Both the position numbers and the translations under genes were made by a program. This document shows, in pieces, positions 25,508 to 29,915 of a stretch of DNA of 41,682 nt (positions are counted from its first letter, which is position 1; the number at the start of each line of letters is the position of its first letter). The stretch comes from Thermoleophilia bacterium (GTDB lineage Bacteria; Actinomycetota; Thermoleophilia; UBA2241), in the NCBI GenBank assembly GCA_035517975.1, contig DATIYD010000239.1, forward strand, positions 1-41,682, in the 5' to 3' direction. Below the pieces are notes generated by a model. The model had not been told where the DNA came from, searched no databases, and saw only the letters and a list, made by a program, of their open reading frames with translations.

Positions 25508-27993
25508 CAGAGGTCGCGCTCCATCTCGTCGAGGGAGGCGCCGTCGCCCTTGACCGGCGTCCACTGCCAGCCGCCGCCCTCGACCGTCTCGCGGACGTGA
25601 GGCACGACGTCGGGCACGCACTCGCGGGGGCCGTCGCCGGGCTTGTCGCGGCGCACGAAGAGCGACTCGCCGGCCAGCAGGGTGCGGCTGTAGCCGGCCA
25701 GCTCGAAGAAGCCGGTCTGCTCGAGGGCGTCGTACGGGCAGACCTCGACGCATTCGCCGCAGAAGATGCAGCGGCTCTCGTCTAGGTCGTACCGGTCGAG
25801 GACCCTGCGATTGACGTCGATGGAGCCGGTCGGGCAGGTCTCGGCGCACTTGCCGCACGAGATGCAGCCGACCGTCTGCAGCGGCAGGTTGTCGGGCGTC
25901 GAGACGATCGTGTCCCAGCCGCGGCCGATGGCGTCGTAGCAGCTCGCCCCGACCTCCATGCGACAGACGCGCACGCAGCGCAGGCACATGATGCAGCGAT
26001 TGGGCTCGCGCATGATGAAGTCGTGGCGGAAGTCGGCTGGGTAGTCGTGCGCGGCCTGCCCGTGAAAGCGGTTCTCGAAGACCTCGTACTCGATGCCGTA
26101 GCGCTGCAGCTCGCAGCTGCCGTTGGCGGGACAGTGGCAATCGAGACAGAGCGCCGCGCCCTGCCGGGCCTGGTCTTCTGTCAAGCCGAGCTCGACCTCG
26201 TCGAAGCTCTTGATGCGCTCGCCGGGGGCAAGCGCCGGCATGGTGGCCGGCCCGACCGGCTGCGAGACGTCGGTCGTCATGTCGATGAACACCGGCGCGA
26301 CCTCGGCCAGGCGGGCGACGCCCGGCTCGAGGGCGTCGCGGGCCCGCAGGGCGTCGAGGAACGGTGTGGCGGCGAGGTCGGAGAGCGATCCCGAGACGGC
26401 CCGCATGTCGGCGCCGCGCAGGAAGGCGTCGATGCTCCAGGCCGCCTTCTTGCCCTGAGCGACCGCCTCGATCACGGTCTGGGCCCCGAGCACGACGTCG
26501 CCCCCGGCGAACACCCGGGGGTCGTCGGTCTGGAAGGTGAATCGGTCGACCTCGACGGTCTGTCGCGAGGTGCGCTTGACGCCCTGCGCCTCGCTCGTGC
26601 CGTCGAGCTTCGGGAGCTGGCCCGTGGCGTTGATCACCTGGTCGCAGGCGAGGACGAAGGTCGGCCCGTCGACGGGCTGCGTCCGGCTCTGACCCGAGTC
26701 GCCGGGCGCGACCTCGAGACGCCGCATCTCGATGCCGGTGACCTTGCCCTTGGCGCCGACGACCACGCGCACGGGCTCGACCAGCGTCTCGAGGCGGGCG
26801 CCCTCGCTCACGGTCGCCGCGACCTCGTCGGGCGGAGCCGACTGGGCGCCGGGCGCGCTCGCCGAGAGCAACGTGACCTCGCGCGCGCCCTTGCGCAGCG
26901 CGACGCGGCAGGCTTCGGTGGCGGCGAAACCGTCGCCGACGACGGCTACCTTGCGACCGACGCGCGCCTCGTCGCCGAGCTCGAGTGCGCCGAGGAGCTC
27001 GAGCGCGTCGAGCACGTCGGCGCCGTCGTGCTCGACCGGCAGCGGCGCGGCGGCGAAGGCGCCCAGGCCGAGGAAGACGGCGTCGAAGCGCGCGGTCAAG
27101 GCGTCGAGCTGCTCGTCGTCGCCCAGGCGAGTGTTGCACCGGAGCTCGACGCCCATGCGCCACAACACGTTCAGCTCCTTGTCGATCACGTCGCGCGGCA
27201 GGCGGAAGCTCGGGATGCCGTAGCGCAGCATGCCGCCCGGTTTGGGCAGGGCCTCGAAGATCGTTACGGCGTGGCCCTCGAGCCGGGCGTAGAACGCGCA
27301 GGCGAGGCCCGCCGGACCGGCGCCCACGATGGCGACCGTCTTGCCGCTGTCGGGCTTGGGCTCCCACGGCAGCAGCAGCTCGCCGGTCTGCTCGTCGTCT
27401 AAGCACTGGTCGGCCATGAAGCGGTGCAGCCAGCAGATGGTGATCGCGTCGTCGACGAGGCGGCGCCGGCAGGGCTCCTCGCAGGGCCGCGGACACACGC
27501 GCCCGAGAATGGCCGGGAACGGCAGGTCCTCGCGCAGCTTGCGCACGCCCGACCGATAGTCGCCGTTGGCGACGGCCTCGAGGAACTGCGGGATCTTGAT
27601 GTGCGTCGGGCAGGCGTCGCTGCAGGGCGGCGTGCAGAACGAGTTGTGATCGGACAGCAGGAGCTCGAGGTAGAGGCGCCGCATGCGGCGCACCTTGTCG
27701 GTGTCCGTGAGCACGACGATGCCGTCGGCCGCCATGGTCGAGCAGCTCGAGACGGGTTTGCCCCAGCCCTCGACCTCGACCATGCACAGGCGGCAGGCGG
27801 CAGAGGCCGGCAGGCGCGACTCGTAGCACAGCGTGGGGATGTGGACGCCGACCCGGGCGGCCGCCTGCAGGATGGTCTCACCCTTGTCGCACGTGACCTC
27901 GCGGCCGTCGATGGTGAGCGAGATCTGCTCGGCGCGCGACGCGGCCGCCTGGGGCGCCCCGGCGTTCTTCGACGTGTCGTGGGCGATCGTCAT
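25507..27993 (-). CDS. Chimeric Fe-S flavoprotein: NuoG/HydA-type N-terminal [2Fe-2S] + GltD/NfnB-like FAD/NAD(P)H oxidoreductase + NuoG/HydA-type [4Fe-4S] motifs + C-terminal half of NuoI
   Basis: About 828 aa from ATG 27991-27993, with ATGA overlap with the nuoF stop. The track merges it into a 1429-aa ORF. Motifs in order: [12 protein letters not shown]...TLCYES...[10 protein letters not shown]...SSCS; [29 protein letters not shown]...[30 protein letters not shown]...[82 protein letters not shown]...[49 protein letters not shown]. No molybdopterin-like domain. Confidence 0.85.
   Translation of the reverse strand: [828 protein letters not shown]

Positions 27994-29915: not shown

What the first reader, a model, noticed from the sequence alone, without database searches (positions are those of the whole stretch)
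27990..29915. NuoF is the extended HydB/HoxF-like type rather than the compact respiratory type
The 641-aa NuoF homolog has a standard FMN/NADH/N3 core. It also has an N-terminal thioredoxin-like [2Fe-2S] domain (CAGTAC...CHGFC) and a C-terminal 2x[4Fe-4S] ferredoxin domain (CTGCGLCAKKCP...CIKCDTCRQVC). From memory, this three-part layout characterises the B subunits of HydABC-type electron-bifurcating hydrogenases, Stn-type Nfn and related Bfu enzymes, and is not found in complex I NuoF. With the NuoE-like and GltD-containing partners, the cassette looks like a recruited soluble NAD(P)H/ferredoxin module. This raises the possibility of ferredoxin interaction or flavin-based bifurcation on a membrane complex.
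Basis: partly seen in the sequence, partly recalled or inferred. Interest (0 to 1): 0.65.

Follow-up and report, generated by a model that had tools for sequence, protein, structure and literature searches.

The report
Bifurcating-type NuoF wired into complex I
The NuoF gene of this respiratory complex I operon is the large type found in electron-bifurcating enzymes, and it belongs to a three-gene module inserted into the nuoI gene, so the module is physically fused to the proton pump; this design is common in uncultured soil Actinobacteria but I found no published description of it.

Summary
The ORF at 27990-29915 encodes a 641-aa NuoF homologue with all the stated Cys motifs. By every test run it is a Bfu-type B subunit (HydB/StnB/NfnB-like), not a respiratory NuoF.

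- **Solved structures:** 649-789 bits full length to bifurcating B subunits, against 264-367 bits (core only) to respiratory complex I NuoF.
- **NCBI model:** it fails the curated NuoF equivalog cut-off (455 against 558.65 bits).
- **Phylogeny:** 97% bootstrap separation from E. coli NuoF and an Fds-like sequence.
- **Residues:** all published Bfu-diagnostic residues are present, and they are conserved in three divergent nuo-embedded lineages.

Extended NuoF in nuo operons was already predicted as "Nuo-Bfu" (Schut et al. 2022). Three things are new here.

- **Partner subunit:** it is an Nfn/Stn-type GltD protein.
- **Split NuoI:** its N-half is fused to NuoE and its C-half to the GltD protein, inside an 11-subunit-type operon.
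- **Distribution:** the design is conserved across many uncultured Thermoleophilia.

A paralogous copy of the module is fused to pyruvate:ferredoxin-oxidoreductase genes. In the window's lineage the GltD nucleotide site is degenerate, and the NuoF core is a mosaic with the POR-linked paralogue.

The most likely function is a proton-pumping quinone reductase fed by NADH plus reduced ferredoxin. This is untested.

The parts
27990..29915 (-). nuoF, Bfu-type B subunit (641 aa). Ligands and motifs: N-terminal thioredoxin-like [2Fe-2S] (B5: C36, C41, C73, C77); FMN/NADH core with AFM 227-229, F311 and GGPSG 426-430; [4Fe-4S] B1/N3 (C484, C487, C490, C530); Zn/B2 hinge (C467, T505, H554, C560, C565); C-terminal 2x[4Fe-4S] ferredoxin domain (C577/580/583/587 and C607/610/613/617).
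29970..30731 (-). Fusion gene (253 aa). Residues about 1-75 are the NuoI N-terminal half, with one CxxCxxCxxxCP motif (C51, C54, C57, C61). A linker of about 25-30 aa follows, then a NuoE/BfuC-type [2Fe-2S] thioredoxin-like domain (residues about 100-245). The start codon overlaps the nuoH stop (TGATG).
   Evidence: Pfam. PDB: residues 96-248 to 9bov_C/8oh5_A/9n5u_C, and residues 4-70 to NDUFS8/TYKY. NCBIfam NuoI model positions 2-66. E. coli NuoI residues 5-77. Junction.
25507..27993 (-). Fusion gene (828 aa). It contains a NuoG/HydA-type [2Fe-2S] domain (Fer2_4, 21-97) and a GltD/NfnL-like insert. The insert has 2x[4Fe-4S] (Fer4_20), an FAD Rossmann domain and a divergent NAD(P)H subdomain (about 120-530). 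Next come a NuoG-type His-cluster remnant and 2x[4Fe-4S] (about 600-732), then the NuoI C-terminal half (733-about 785; C742, C745, C748, C752). There is no molybdopterin/FdhF-like domain. The ATG overlaps the nuoF stop (ATGA), and the stop overlaps the nuoJ ATG.
34314..34682 (-). nuoA (122 aa), first gene of the operon.
   Evidence: Pfam Oxidored_q4.
33553..34323 (-). nuoB (about 256 aa, GTG start). It has the N2 cluster Cys motifs ([18 protein letters not shown]) and an Ala/Pro-rich C-terminal tail that is not conserved in orthologues.
33056..33550 (-). nuoC (164 aa, GTG start).
   Evidence: Pfam Complex1_30kDa. Start codon.
31849..33063 (-). nuoD (404 aa). It has the complex I-type QHPSTHGVLR and GYLHR motifs and no [NiFe] Cys motifs.
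   Evidence: Pfam Complex1_49kDa at 298 bits. Sequence.
30731..31852 (-). nuoH (373 aa).
   Evidence: Pfam NADHdh at 375 bits. Start codon.
24998..25507 (-). nuoJ (169 aa).
   Evidence: Pfam Oxidored_q3. Junction.
24693..25001 (-). nuoK (102 aa, GTG start overlapping the nuoJ stop).
22788..24683 (-). nuoL (631 aa).
   Evidence: Pfam Proton_antipo_M and Proton_antipo_N.
21199..22788 (-). nuoM (about 529 aa).
19675..21198 (-). nuoN (507 aa), last gene of the operon.

Best explanation
**What is shown.** The 641-aa protein is a BfuB-type flavoprotein, the same kind as HydB, StnB and NfnB of electron-bifurcating enzymes. It is not a respiratory NuoF. It is the middle gene of a BfuC-BfuB-BfuA trio of Nfn/Stn type that lies inside an 11-subunit-type complex I operon, at the position of nuoI. 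The gene order is nuoA-B-C-D-H-[nuoI N-half::bfuC]-bfuB-[bfuA(GltD)::nuoI C-half]-nuoJ-K-L-M-N, and most junctions overlap.

**What is inferred.** The two NuoI halves reassemble into the 2x[4Fe-4S] NuoI fold (clusters N6a and N6b). This bolts the Bfu module onto the Q-module, so the FeS branch that is a dead end in soluble Stn becomes the exit to N2 and the quinone site.

**Most likely mechanism (inferred, untested).**
1. NADH is oxidised at the FMN.
2. Reduced ferredoxin docks at the C-terminal 2x[4Fe-4S] domain and feeds electrons through B4, B3 and the mobile NuoE-type [2Fe-2S] cluster to the same flavin site (confurcation).
3. The merged electrons run through B1 and the BfuA clusters to N6a, N6b and N2, and then to menaquinone.
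4. This drives proton pumping with more driving force than NADH alone would give.

In sister lineages the GltD flavin could also admit NADPH. In the window's own lineage that nucleotide site looks degenerate.

**Sub-confidences.**
- Bfu-type identity of the protein: about 0.95.
- One physical complex formed through the split NuoI: about 0.85.
- Ferredoxin-linked confurcation into quinone: about 0.45.
For: **Identity of the protein**
- PDB phmmer gives full-length hits of 649-789 bits to bifurcating B subunits (7t2r_B, 8a6t_B, 9bov_B, 7q4v_B, 8oh5_B, 9n5u_B, 7p5h_B). Respiratory complex I NuoF gives 264-367 bits, covering only about 140-560.
- It falls below the NCBIfam NuoF equivalog cut-off, 455.3 against 558.65 bits.
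- In the NJ tree of the core, it separates from E. coli NuoF and an Fds-like sequence with 97% bootstrap.
- The diagnostic residues from PMC9304861 and PMC12018979 are all present: the Zn/B2 site C467/T505/H554/C560/C565, AFM, Phe311, GGPSG, and the B3/B4/B5 ligands. They are conserved in three nuo-embedded lineages and absent from E. coli NuoF.

**Partner subunits**
- The NuoE-like and GltD proteins hit the same Stn/Nfn structures best.

**One complex**
- The NuoI model positions 2-66 and 69-113 lie on two different polypeptides.
- The joined halves match NDUFS8/NuoI collinearly at E = 2.7e-21, against 5e-10 for the N-half alone.
- E. coli NuoI hits two separate loci in the window, and there is no intact nuoI or nuoG.
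- Start and stop codons overlap at the junctions.
- The identical gene order is found in L001, L004, L005, L007, L008/L083, L010, L081, L084, L086 and L087, at 57-90% identity.
- At least 120 protein clusters carry the 251-253-aa fusion.

**Constraint on the ferredoxin arm**
- Between the window and L004, the ferredoxin domain is 80% identical and the Zn hinge 72%, against 62% for the FMN domain.

**Ferredoxin supply**
- A 2-oxoacid/indolepyruvate:ferredoxin oxidoreductase fragment lies 6 kb upstream.
- Paralogous modules are fused to POR in the same MAGs.

**Energetic rationale**
- The argument for NADH plus ferredoxin feeding menaquinone is given for Nuo-Bfu in PMC9304861.
Against: - There is no biochemical data for any Nuo-Bfu. 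The published proposal is itself a prediction.
- NADH to menaquinone is already exergonic, so ferredoxin input is not thermodynamically required.
- The GltD NAD(P)H subdomain is eroding in the window lineage: 53% identity between the window and L084, against 85-92% for most other domains of the protein, and the YRR motif is lost. Parts of the recruited module can therefore become dispensable.
- A NuoI fold whose two clusters are each ligated by Cys from two polypeptides has not been shown structurally.
- The geometry of the roughly 30-aa tether between the NuoI N-half and NuoE was not modelled.
- Sequence alone cannot give the direction of electron flow.
Confidence: 0.55

Rival explanations
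1. Plain NADH:quinone oxidoreductase. The Bfu-type module simply replaces NuoEFG as an NADH dehydrogenase. The extra domains (N-terminal [2Fe-2S], C-terminal ferredoxin domain, GltD flavin) are inherited baggage with a structural role or no role, and no ferredoxin is involved.
For: - NADH to menaquinone is exergonic on its own.
- The GltD NAD(P)H subdomain is clearly relaxed in the window lineage, so module parts can decay.
- Stn itself carries 'non-functional remnant' clusters according to PMC10482914.
Against: - All 8 Cys of the ferredoxin domain, the Zn-hinge His and Cys, and the 4 Cys of B5 are retained in three lineages that are only about 60% identical overall.
- The ferredoxin domain is more conserved than the FMN domain.
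- That pattern is the opposite of what is seen for the decaying NAD(P)H subdomain.
Confidence: 0.25
2. Reverse operation. The complex uses the proton-motive force to drive electrons from menaquinol uphill. It then bifurcates them at the FMN site to reduce NAD+ and ferredoxin (and NADP+ in lineages with an intact GltD site), supplying low-potential reductant for biosynthesis or for POR-type carboxylations.
For: - Bfu enzymes are reversible (PMC9304861).
- Complex I is reversible (established knowledge).
- The same genomes carry POR-fused paralogues, which could consume reduced ferredoxin.
Against: - The neighbouring genes are catabolic: IOR-type oxidoreductase and aryl-CoA ligase-like. They would produce reduced ferredoxin, not consume it.
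- No autotrophy genes were seen in the window.
- Direction cannot be read from sequence.
Confidence: 0.1
3. Membrane-tethered transhydrogenase. The module still performs the Stn/Nfn reaction (NADPH + NAD+ + ferredoxin). Complex I only anchors it, or bleeds off surplus electrons.
For: - The closest solved relatives of all three subunits are Stn/NfnABC transhydrogenases.
- Lineages A and B keep the NADPH motif GGGFTAMD...YRRS...GRRRP.
Against: - In the window lineage the NADPH motif is gone (SAS for YRR, GQSRT for GRRRP).
- The cluster-ligating Lys, described as strictly conserved in Stn, is His in all these proteins.
- The NuoI fusion creates a direct FeS path to N2, which an anchor alone would not need.
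Confidence: 0.06
4. Two separate enzymes are encoded side by side: a soluble Stn-like trimer, and a ferredoxin-dependent 11-subunit complex I.
For: Eleven-subunit nuoABCDHIJKLMN operons without nuoEFG exist in Actinobacteria (bioRxiv 10.1101/2021.02.01.429150).
Against: - There is no intact nuoI. Its two halves are covalently part of the NuoE-like and GltD proteins.
- This arrangement, with overlapping start and stop codons, is conserved in all nuo-embedded loci.
Confidence: 0.03

Closest known systems
Nuo-Bfu (predicted complex I with a BfuABC input module; Schut et al. 2022, PMC9304861; BfuB clades 38 and 39 in Deferribacteres/Proteobacteria including Geobacter, and in Planctomycetes/Nitrospirae)
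   Same: - Bfu-type E/F/G-equivalent genes sit in the middle of a nuo cluster.
- The B subunit carries the ferredoxin-type C-terminal domain.
- The proposed function is NADH plus reduced ferredoxin feeding menaquinone, with proton pumping.
   Different: - Published Nuo-Bfu has 14 subunits in A-N order, with a NuoG-like BfuA and a separate NuoI.
- Here there are 13 genes. The trio sits after nuoH inside nuoI, NuoI is split and fused, BfuA carries a GltD flavin domain and lacks the molybdopterin-like domain, and the host is Actinomycetota (Thermoleophilia).
- The relationship to clades 38/39 could not be tested, because no reference sequences were reachable.
StnABC / NfnABC (Nfn-Bfu) transhydrogenases: Sporomusa ovata 8oh5, Thermococcus sibiricus 9n5u, and 9bov
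   Same: - They are the best or near-best solved relatives of all three cassette proteins.
- The BfuA has the same layout: a [2Fe-2S] domain, a GltD insert within the His-cluster motif, and 2x[4Fe-4S].
- The BfuBC core and its diagnostic residues are the same.
   Different: - The FdhF-like C-terminal domain is replaced by the NuoI C-half.
- BfuC gains the NuoI N-half.
- The cluster-ligating Lys (K170 in S. ovata, K165 in T. sibiricus) is His.
- The NADPH motif is lost in the window lineage.
- The module is embedded in a membrane-complex operon, not encoded as a soluble trimer.
HydB of electron-bifurcating hydrogenases (Acetomicrobium mobile NiFe-HydABCSL 7t2r, T. kivui 8a6t, A. woodii 7q4v, T. 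maritima 7p5h)
   Same: - 7t2r_B is the top PDB hit, at 789 bits over residues 32-622.
- The domain order is identical, and the B1, B2/Zn, B3, B4 and B5 ligands match.
   Different: - No hydrogenase subunit or H-cluster domain is present in the operon.
- The third partner is the complex I Q-module.
Respiratory NuoF / Nqo1 / NDUFV1 (E. coli, T. thermophilus, mitochondria)
   Same: - Homologous FMN/NADH/N3 core (40% identity to E. coli NuoF over residues about 143-555).
- The gene lies in a nuo operon.
   Different: - Respiratory NuoF is 420-450 aa and lacks both extra domains and the Zn hinge.
- It has TYK for AFM, Y for F311, and GGAGT for GGPSG.
- The window protein fails the NuoF equivalog cut-offs.
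HoxF of bidirectional [NiFe] hydrogenase (Acaryochloris pREB4)
   Same: - It shares the N-terminal thioredoxin-like [2Fe-2S] domain and the core.
- It shares the AFM and GGPSG motifs.
   Different: HoxF ends at about residue 558 of the query. It has no C-terminal ferredoxin domain and no Zn-hinge His/Cys. The 'HoxF-like' label is therefore imprecise.
Actinobacterial POR-linked Bfu paralogue (found here: L082, L088-L115, L136); compare the 'Por-Bfu' predicted by Schut et al. for Chloroflexi and syntrophs
   Same: - BfuB is 66-76% identical.
- BfuC has a NuoI-N-like half-ferredoxin extension.
- BfuA has the same GltD insert, the same His replacement and the same third Cys motif.
- It occurs in the same MAGs as the nuo-embedded form.
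   Different: - BfuA continues into a TPP-binding PorB-like domain (about 1060 aa).
- The neighbours are POR alpha, gamma and delta genes instead of nuo genes.

Membership tests
Bfu family, B subunit (BfuB = HydB/StnB/NfnB) | FMN/NADH core (Nuo51 FMN domain, SLBB, NuoF [4Fe-4S] region) plus a ferredoxin-type 4Fe-4S domain. These are the InterPro set used by Schut et al. to define BfuB. | tested here: met
   Pfam PF01512, PF10531, PF10589 and Fer4 dicluster at residues 576-620. The definition was read.
Bfu family, B subunit | B2/Zn hinge ligands: 3 Cys, the near-universally conserved His, and Thr or Cys at the fifth position (A. mobile C438, C476, H525, C531, C536). | tested here: met
   C467, T505, H554, C560 and C565, from the alignment to 7t2r_B. 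They are conserved in all nuo-embedded lineages and absent in E. coli NuoF and HoxF. Criterion.
Bfu family, B subunit | Two CX2CX2CX3C(P) motifs (clusters B3 and B4) and an N-terminal thioredoxin-like site with 4 Cys (B5). | tested here: met
   C577/580/583/587, C607/610/613/617 and C36/41/73/77. The second motif ends in C-N rather than C-P, as it also varies in S. ovata.
Bfu family, B subunit | Flavin-site motifs reported as present in bifurcating enzymes and absent in non-bifurcating ones: AFM, Phe281 (T. sibiricus numbering) and GGPSG. | tested here: met
   AFM 227-229, F311 and GGPSG 426-430. E. coli NuoF has TYK, Y and GGAGT. Criterion from PMC12018979. HoxF also has these motifs, so on their own they are not sufficient.
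Bfu family, B subunit | A BfuC partner with the C1 [2Fe-2S] cluster and the conserved inter-domain linker. | tested here: met
   The NuoE part is 158 bits to 9bov_C. It has 4 Cys (CHGTAC...CVGAC) and the linker YDQFRLSPVGR, compared with T. sibiricus YAQFRFEPLGK.
Bfu family, B subunit | Demonstrated electron bifurcation or confurcation with NAD(H), ferredoxin and a third substrate. | not testable with these tools
   This needs biochemistry.
Respiratory complex I NuoF (NCBIfam TIGR01959 equivalog) | Whole-protein score at or above the curated cut-off. | tested here: not met
   455.3 bits against a cut-off of 558.65. NF008436 scores 360 against 749, and NF010120 scores 337 against 389.
Respiratory complex I NuoF | Compact single-module architecture of about 420-450 aa, with no extra FeS domains. 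| tested here: not met
   The protein is 641 aa with two extra FeS domains. PDB NuoF hits cover only residues about 143-558.
Nfn-Bfu / Stn transhydrogenase | BfuA with a GltD/NfnL-like FAD domain inserted into the NuoG-like FeS domain. | tested here: met
   Fer2_4, Fer4_20, Pyr_redox_2 and Fer4_Nqo3. 519 bits to 9bov_A and 461 bits to 8oh5_C.
Nfn-Bfu / Stn transhydrogenase | [quoted passage not shown] | tested here: not met
   His is found instead (ICWLHRF), in the window and in all actinobacterial nuo-embedded and POR-linked BfuA. Criterion.
Nfn-Bfu / Stn transhydrogenase | Canonical NADPH-binding Rossmann motif (GGGNTAMD ... YRR ... GRRRP), as in the three solved A subunits. | tested here: not met
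   The window has GDGFAATE ... SAS ... GQSRT. The sister lineages L087, L004, L005 and L007 keep the motif. The role of YRR in 2'-phosphate binding is from my own knowledge of the GltD family, not from a tool.
Nfn-Bfu / Stn transhydrogenase | A stand-alone three-gene operon, with a C-terminal FdhF/NuoG-like domain on the A subunit. | tested here: not met
   The trio is embedded in the nuo operon. The A subunit ends in the NuoI C-half, and E. coli NuoG matches only through residue 244.
Nuo-Bfu (Schut et al. 2022) | BfuABC genes inside a nuo gene cluster, replacing NuoEFG. | tested here: met
   Gene map. Synteny.
Nuo-Bfu (Schut et al. 2022) | A 14-subunit A-N organisation with a NuoG-like BfuA (Type 3) and a separate NuoI. 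| tested here: not met
   There are 13 genes, a split NuoI, a GltD-type BfuA, and the trio sits after nuoH. The published description was read.
Nuo-Bfu (Schut et al. 2022) | Membership of BfuB clades 38 or 39. | not tested
   No clade 38/39 sequence (for example Geobacter NuoF) could be fetched. The phyla differ, and the nearest relatives found here are actinobacterial POR-linked and Nfn/Stn-type proteins.
Complex I membrane arm and Q-module | NuoA, B, C, D, H, J, K, L, M and N present, with a complex I-type NuoD (no NiFe ligands) and the N2 cysteines in NuoB. | tested here: met
   Pfam hits. Sequence motifs QHPSTHGVLR, GYLHR, CCAIEM and GCPP.
Complex I membrane arm and Q-module | A single-polypeptide NuoI carrying N6a and N6b. 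| tested here: not met
   NuoI model positions 2-66 and 69-113 lie on two different proteins. All 8 Cys are nevertheless present.

The most novel reading that the evidence does not exclude
The operon encodes a single proton-pumping machine with up to four redox partners: NADH at the FMN, ferredoxin at the B3/B4 domain, NAD(P)H at the GltD FAD in lineages that keep the site, and menaquinone. In it a flavin-based confurcating module is covalently stitched to complex I through a NuoI whose two [4Fe-4S] clusters are each ligated across two polypeptides. It would be the first natural 'hard-wired' proof that Bfu modules dock on complex I at NuoI. It would also be a living example of how an 11-subunit ancestor can acquire an electron-input module by insertion into nuoI, independently of the canonical NuoEFG acquisition. 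The same split-NuoI adaptor would then have been re-used to plug the module into POR.
Probability: 0.3. Interest if true: 0.85.

Novelty: new variant of a known kind. Interest (0 to 1): 0.68.

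Why it matters
Whether complex I-like pumps can be driven by flavin-based confurcation of NADH and ferredoxin is an open, purely bioinformatic proposal. No Nuo-Bfu has been purified, and it is not even shown that the Bfu subunits and the membrane arm form one complex.

Here the gene fusions answer the second question at the genetic level. The Bfu module cannot be separated from NuoI. 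They also point to the docking geometry, in which the BfuA ferredoxin domain leads directly into N6a/N6b. This makes the system an attractive target for cryo-EM and biochemistry.

The design also bears on how complex I acquired its electron-input module, because an independent modular solution exists on the 11-subunit scaffold. It further shows one Bfu core shared, and even recombined, between a respiratory complex and a POR-linked enzyme.

The architecture is abundant in soil and sediment Thermoleophilia and is currently annotated simply as NuoE, NuoF and 'glutamate synthase'. Metabolic reconstructions of these organisms therefore probably misread their energy metabolism.

Tried and rejected
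- **+ strand translation.** The finding's coordinates are non-coding on the + strand. The gene is on the minus strand.
- **Plasmid tblastn.** It gave only distant hits. These were used solely as reference sequences (Acaryochloris HoxF, Methylobacterium and Sinorhizobium Fds-like). The Sinorhizobium sequence aligned poorly and dropped out of the tree.
- **Clade 38/39 NuoF.** I could not obtain a Geobacter or clade 38/39 Nuo-Bfu NuoF, so the question of independent origin from published Nuo-Bfu is argued from architecture and nearest neighbours only.
- **Soluble relatives.** I first assumed that the close 'soluble' relatives (P0100/L082) were plain Stn/Nfn trimers. I rejected this once their BfuA proved to be fused to a PorB-like TPP domain and flanked by POR genes.
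- **NuoI-like extension of NuoE.** I first took this extension to be unique to the nuo-embedded form. That was wrong. The POR-linked BfuC carries a homologous half-ferredoxin extension. Which form is ancestral is unresolved.
- **B-subunit tree.** The core tree alone suggested that nuo-embedded forms are polyphyletic. The A-subunit tree and the sliding-window analysis show this is better explained by a mosaic NuoF in the window clade.
- **L085/L009.** This locus has a close E-F-GltD cassette with no nuo genes in the 9.6 kb upstream. The contig ends inside BfuA, so its partner is unknown.
- **Literature.** Searches for a split NuoI or a GltD-bearing nuo operon found nothing. This covers only the open-access library that was searched.
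- **Structure prediction.** None was run. The informative model would be a multimer of chimeric or paired chains, which the tool does not offer.

Full report
**1. The observation**

The finding's coordinates hold a real gene, but on the minus strand. The ORF at 27990..29915 starts with ATG and encodes 641 aa. The + strand frame is not coding.

Every quoted Cys motif is present: ICAGTAC, GCHGFC, CTGCGLCAKKCP and CIKCDTCRQVC. Pfam finds the three-part layout:
- a thioredoxin-like [2Fe-2S] domain (28-105);
- the NuoF core, made of Complex1_51K (184-359), SLBB (383-431) and NADH_4Fe-4S (470-554);
- a 2x[4Fe-4S] ferredoxin domain (576-620).

The window is about 68% G+C.

**2. The gene neighbourhood**

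The ORF is part of a 13-gene, tightly coupled operon on the minus strand, spanning 19675-34682. The order is:
- nuoA, nuoB, nuoC, nuoD, nuoH;
- a 253-aa gene (29970-30731);
- nuoF;
- an 828-aa gene (25507-27993);
- nuoJ, nuoK, nuoL, nuoM, nuoN.

Start and stop codons overlap at most junctions, for example TGATG at nuoH/253-aa gene, ATGA at nuoF/828-aa gene, and TGATG at 828-aa gene/nuoJ.

There is no separate nuoI, no normal nuoG and no second nuoE/F.

The 253-aa protein has two parts:
- Residues about 100-245 are a NuoE/BfuC domain.
- Residues 4-70 match NDUFS8/TYKY/NuoI.

The 828-aa protein has five parts:
- a NuoG/HydA-type [2Fe-2S] domain;
- a GltD/NfnL-like insert (Fer4_20 plus FAD/NAD(P)H Rossmann domains);
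- the NuoG-type His-cluster remnant;
- a 2x[4Fe-4S] domain;
- a C-terminal '[30 protein letters not shown]' segment.

**3. NuoI is split**

Three independent tests agree.
1. NCBI's NuoI model (TIGR01971, 121 positions) matches positions 2-66 on the 253-aa protein and positions 69-113 on the 828-aa protein.
2. E. coli NuoI hits two places in the window. Residues 5-77 map to 30737-30525, and residues 60-146 map to 25866-25627.
3. Joining the two halves in silico gives a single collinear match to NDUFS8/NuoI over residues 4-119 at E = 2.7e-21. The N-half alone gives 5e-10.

All eight cluster-ligating Cys are present.

E. coli NuoG matches only through residue about 244, so the molybdopterin-like domain is absent.

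The simplest description is that an E-F-A trio has been inserted into nuoI of an 11-subunit-type operon (nuoABCDHIJKLMN). Such operons are known in Actinobacteria.

**4. What kind of NuoF this is**

*Solved structures.* The protein matches characterised or structurally solved Bfu-type B subunits over its full length.

| Chain | Source | Bits |
|---|---|---|
| 7t2r_B | A. mobile NiFe-HydABCSL | 789 |
| 8a6t_B | T. kivui HydB | 731 |
| 9bov_B | not named | 721 |
| 7q4v_B | A. woodii HydB | 712 |
| 8oh5_B | S. ovata Stn | 708 |
| 9n5u_B | T. sibiricus NfnB | 691 |
| 7p5h_B | T. maritima HydB | 649 |

Respiratory complex I NuoF chains score 264-367 bits and cover only residues about 140-560.

*Curated models.* It fails all three NCBIfam NuoF equivalog cut-offs. 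For TIGR01959 the score is 455.3 against 558.65.

*Phylogeny.* In an NJ tree of the core (residues 150-555, 64 taxa, 100 bootstraps), E. coli NuoF and an Fds-like sequence are separated from the Bfu/HoxF radiation at 97%.

*Diagnostic residues.* The features published for bifurcating B subunits (PMC9304861; PMC12018979) are all present:
- the Zn/B2 hinge C467, T505, H554, C560, C565;
- AFM 227-229, F311 and GGPSG 426-430;
- the B1, B3, B4 and B5 ligands.

E. coli NuoF has none of the extra ligands, and it has TYK, Y and GGAGT at the flavin-site motifs. HoxF lacks the hinge and the ferredoxin domain, so 'HydB/StnB-like' is the accurate label and 'HoxF-like' is not.

**5. Partners and conservation**

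All three cassette proteins hit the same solved complexes best: 9bov, 8oh5 (S. ovata StnABC) and 9n5u (T. sibiricus NfnABC). The module is therefore of the Nfn/Stn-type Bfu kind.

The complete gene order, including both fusions, recurs in species-representative MAGs labelled Thermoleophilia, Actinomycetes or Actinomycetota. These are L001, L002, L004, L005, L007, L008/L083, L010, L081, L084, L086 and L087, at 57-90% protein identity.

In the large protein collection, at least 120 clusters (90% identity level) carry the 251-253-aa NuoI-N::NuoE fusion at 62-97% identity. All are named only 'NuoE', with only PF01257 detected.

The extra NuoF domains are under constraint in these complexes. Between the window and the divergent L004, the ferredoxin domain is 80% identical and the Zn hinge 72%, against 62% for the FMN domain. 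All ligands are retained in three lineages.

**6. A paralogous, POR-linked form**

Many Actinomycetota MAGs carry a second copy of the module, some of them alongside the nuo-embedded form:
- MFD00709.bin.2.166 carries both L001 and L111.
- MFD01872.bin.2.207 carries both L002 and L136.

In the second copy:
- BfuB is 66-76% identical to the window's NuoF.
- BfuC has a homologous half-ferredoxin N-terminal extension.
- BfuA (about 1060 aa) has the same GltD insert and third Cys motif, but continues into a TPP-binding PorB-like domain.
- POR gamma, delta and alpha genes lie immediately upstream.

The joined halves of that form still hit NuoI best among single-stretch matches, but more weakly, at 47 bits. 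The same Bfu core and the same split adaptor therefore plug into either complex I or POR. Which form is ancestral is not resolved.

The A-subunit tree shows nuo-embedded forms as monophyletic (100%) and sister to the POR-linked clade (100%). Stn/9bov branch outside.

**7. Peculiarities of the window's own lineage**

*(a) GltD nucleotide site.* Lineages represented by L087, L004, L005 and L007 keep the canonical NADPH motif seen in the three solved A subunits (GGGxTAMD ... YRRS ... GRRRP). The window has GDGFAATE ... SAS ... GQSRT, and its close relative L084 has CRN at the YRR position.

The NAD(P)H subdomain is only 53% identical between the window and L084, against 85-92% for the FeS domains. 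Yet it is 82-87% identical among the other lineages. The site has been relaxed or changed here.

*(b) His for Lys.* All actinobacterial BfuA, nuo-embedded or POR-linked, have His (IC.LHR) at the position of the cluster-ligating Lys. That Lys is described as strictly conserved in StnC and NfnA.

*(c) Mosaic NuoF.* The comparison below gives the window NuoF's identity to nuo-embedded lineage B and to the POR-linked paralogues.

| Residues | Identity to nuo lineage B | Identity to POR-linked paralogues |
|---|---|---|
| 31-180 | 78-88% | 52-63% |
| about 240-480 (FMN/SLBB core) | 59-86% | 75-91% |
| 481-630 | 78-86% | 54-68% |

A control query from lineage B shows no such switch. This explains why the core tree puts the window clade next to the POR-linked clade at 96%. 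It also suggests gene conversion between the paralogues.

**8. Mechanism**

*Shown:*
- the identity of the protein;
- the fusions;
- the cofactor ligands;
- conservation.

*Inferred:*
- The NuoI halves reassemble to bind N6a and N6b.
- The FeS branch that in soluble Stn leads to a 'non-functional remnant' FdhF-like domain (PMC10482914) here leads through N6a/N6b to N2 and the quinone site. NuoB has the N2 cysteines, and NuoD has the complex I-type QHPSTHGVLR and GYLHR motifs.

*Most likely function:*
- NADH is oxidised at the FMN.
- Reduced ferredoxin enters through B4, B3 and the mobile C1 cluster.
- The merged electrons reduce menaquinone and drive proton pumping. This is the rationale Schut et al. 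give for Nuo-Bfu.

Ferredoxin-producing enzymes are at hand. An IOR/2-oxoacid:ferredoxin oxidoreductase fragment, an ACT protein and an aryl-CoA-ligase-like gene lie at 38685-41627.

The rival explanations are a plain NADH dehydrogenase with vestigial domains, reverse pmf-driven ferredoxin reduction, a tethered transhydrogenase, and two separate enzymes. The last is essentially excluded by the split NuoI.

**9. Comparison with what is known, and novelty**

Extended, ferredoxin-domain-bearing B subunits in nuo clusters are already in the literature as predicted 'Nuo-Bfu'. That set has 51 sequences in clades 38/39, from Deferribacteres/Proteobacteria and Planctomycetes/Nitrospirae, with 14 subunits A-N. 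The headline of the finding is therefore not new in kind.

I found no description of the following:
- a GltD-type (Nfn/Stn) A subunit in a nuo operon;
- insertion into nuoI, with NuoI split across two fusion proteins;
- the actinobacterial distribution;
- the POR-linked sister system sharing the adaptor.

The searches were made, and they cover the open-access library only.

I therefore rate this a new variant of a known kind. It has above-average interest, because the fusions make the physical coupling of a Bfu module to complex I directly testable.

**10. Limits**

- There is no biochemistry and no structural model of the assembled complex.
- The trees are NJ trees on modest samples.
- The role assigned to the YRR motif rests on my knowledge of the GltD family.
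- Taxon labels are those of the MAG records.

Noticed in passing
L082:6977-15102; also L088-L115 and L136 (for example L111:9193-15072): Actinobacterial POR-linked Bfu system. The gene order is POR gamma, a delta-type ferredoxin, POR alpha, BfuC with a NuoI-N-like half-ferredoxin extension, BfuB, and a roughly 1060-aa BfuA. That BfuA has a GltD insert and a NuoI-C-like Cys motif, and is fused to a TPP-binding PorB-like domain. It differs from the 'Por-Bfu' described for Chloroflexi and syntrophs in carrying the GltD flavin domain.
   Followed up: partly
window 27990-29915 (NuoF residues about 240-480): The window's NuoF is a mosaic. Its FMN/SLBB core is 75-91% identical to the POR-linked paralogues but only 59-86% to nuo-embedded lineage B. 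The N- and C-terminal thirds show the opposite pattern. This suggests gene conversion between the two paralogous operons.
   Followed up: partly
window 25507-27993 (GltD-fusion residues about 336-470, and residue about 190): The NAD(P)H subdomain has lost the canonical GGGxTAMD/YRR/GRRRP motif in the window and L084 only. It is 53% identical between these two close relatives, against 85-92% for most other domains of the protein. Separately, all actinobacterial BfuA have His where Stn/Nfn have the 'strictly conserved' cluster-ligating Lys.
   Followed up: partly
L085 (= L009), Coriobacteriia-labelled MAG palsa_660, 9809-13418: This locus has an E-F-GltD cassette with F 77% and A 73% identical to the window's. 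Its NuoE lacks the NuoI-N extension. The 9.6 kb upstream holds only ABC-transporter-type genes and no nuo genes. The contig ends inside BfuA, so the partner of this third context is unknown.
   Followed up: partly
window 38685-41627 (minus strand): This stretch holds a fragment of a TPP_enzyme_C + 2x[4Fe-4S] protein (indolepyruvate/2-oxoacid:ferredoxin oxidoreductase type, cut by the window end), an ACT-domain protein and an AMP-binding/AMP-binding_C_2 (phenylacetate-CoA-ligase-like) enzyme. Together they look like a ferredoxin-reducing aromatic 2-oxoacid catabolic cluster, a few kb upstream of the nuo operon.
   Followed up: no
window 33553-34323 (nuoB, C-terminal roughly 75 residues): NuoB carries an Ala/Pro/Asp-rich low-complexity C-terminal tail. 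Orthologues align only to about residue 177, so the tail is lineage-specific. Its role is unknown.
   Followed up: no
window 34992-36349 (+ strand) and 36495-38576 (+ strand): tatA (with a long Ala/Pro-rich tail) and tatC lie divergently upstream of nuoA. They are followed by a class A penicillin-binding-protein-like gene with a Pro/Ser/Thr-rich C-terminus.
   Followed up: no
window 7985-9307 (minus strand) and 11220-12464 (+ strand): A radical SAM/SPASM-domain protein and an HMG-CoA synthase homologue sit among polysaccharide-biosynthesis genes downstream of the operon. They appear unrelated to the finding.
   Followed up: no
L001, L002, L007, L010, L081 (MFD and ENA long-read assemblies): Several orthologous operons show apparent frameshifts that split nuoF, nuoD, nuoM or the GltD gene into pieces. 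These are probably long-read assembly errors rather than pseudogenes, since the neighbouring genes are intact.
   Followed up: no
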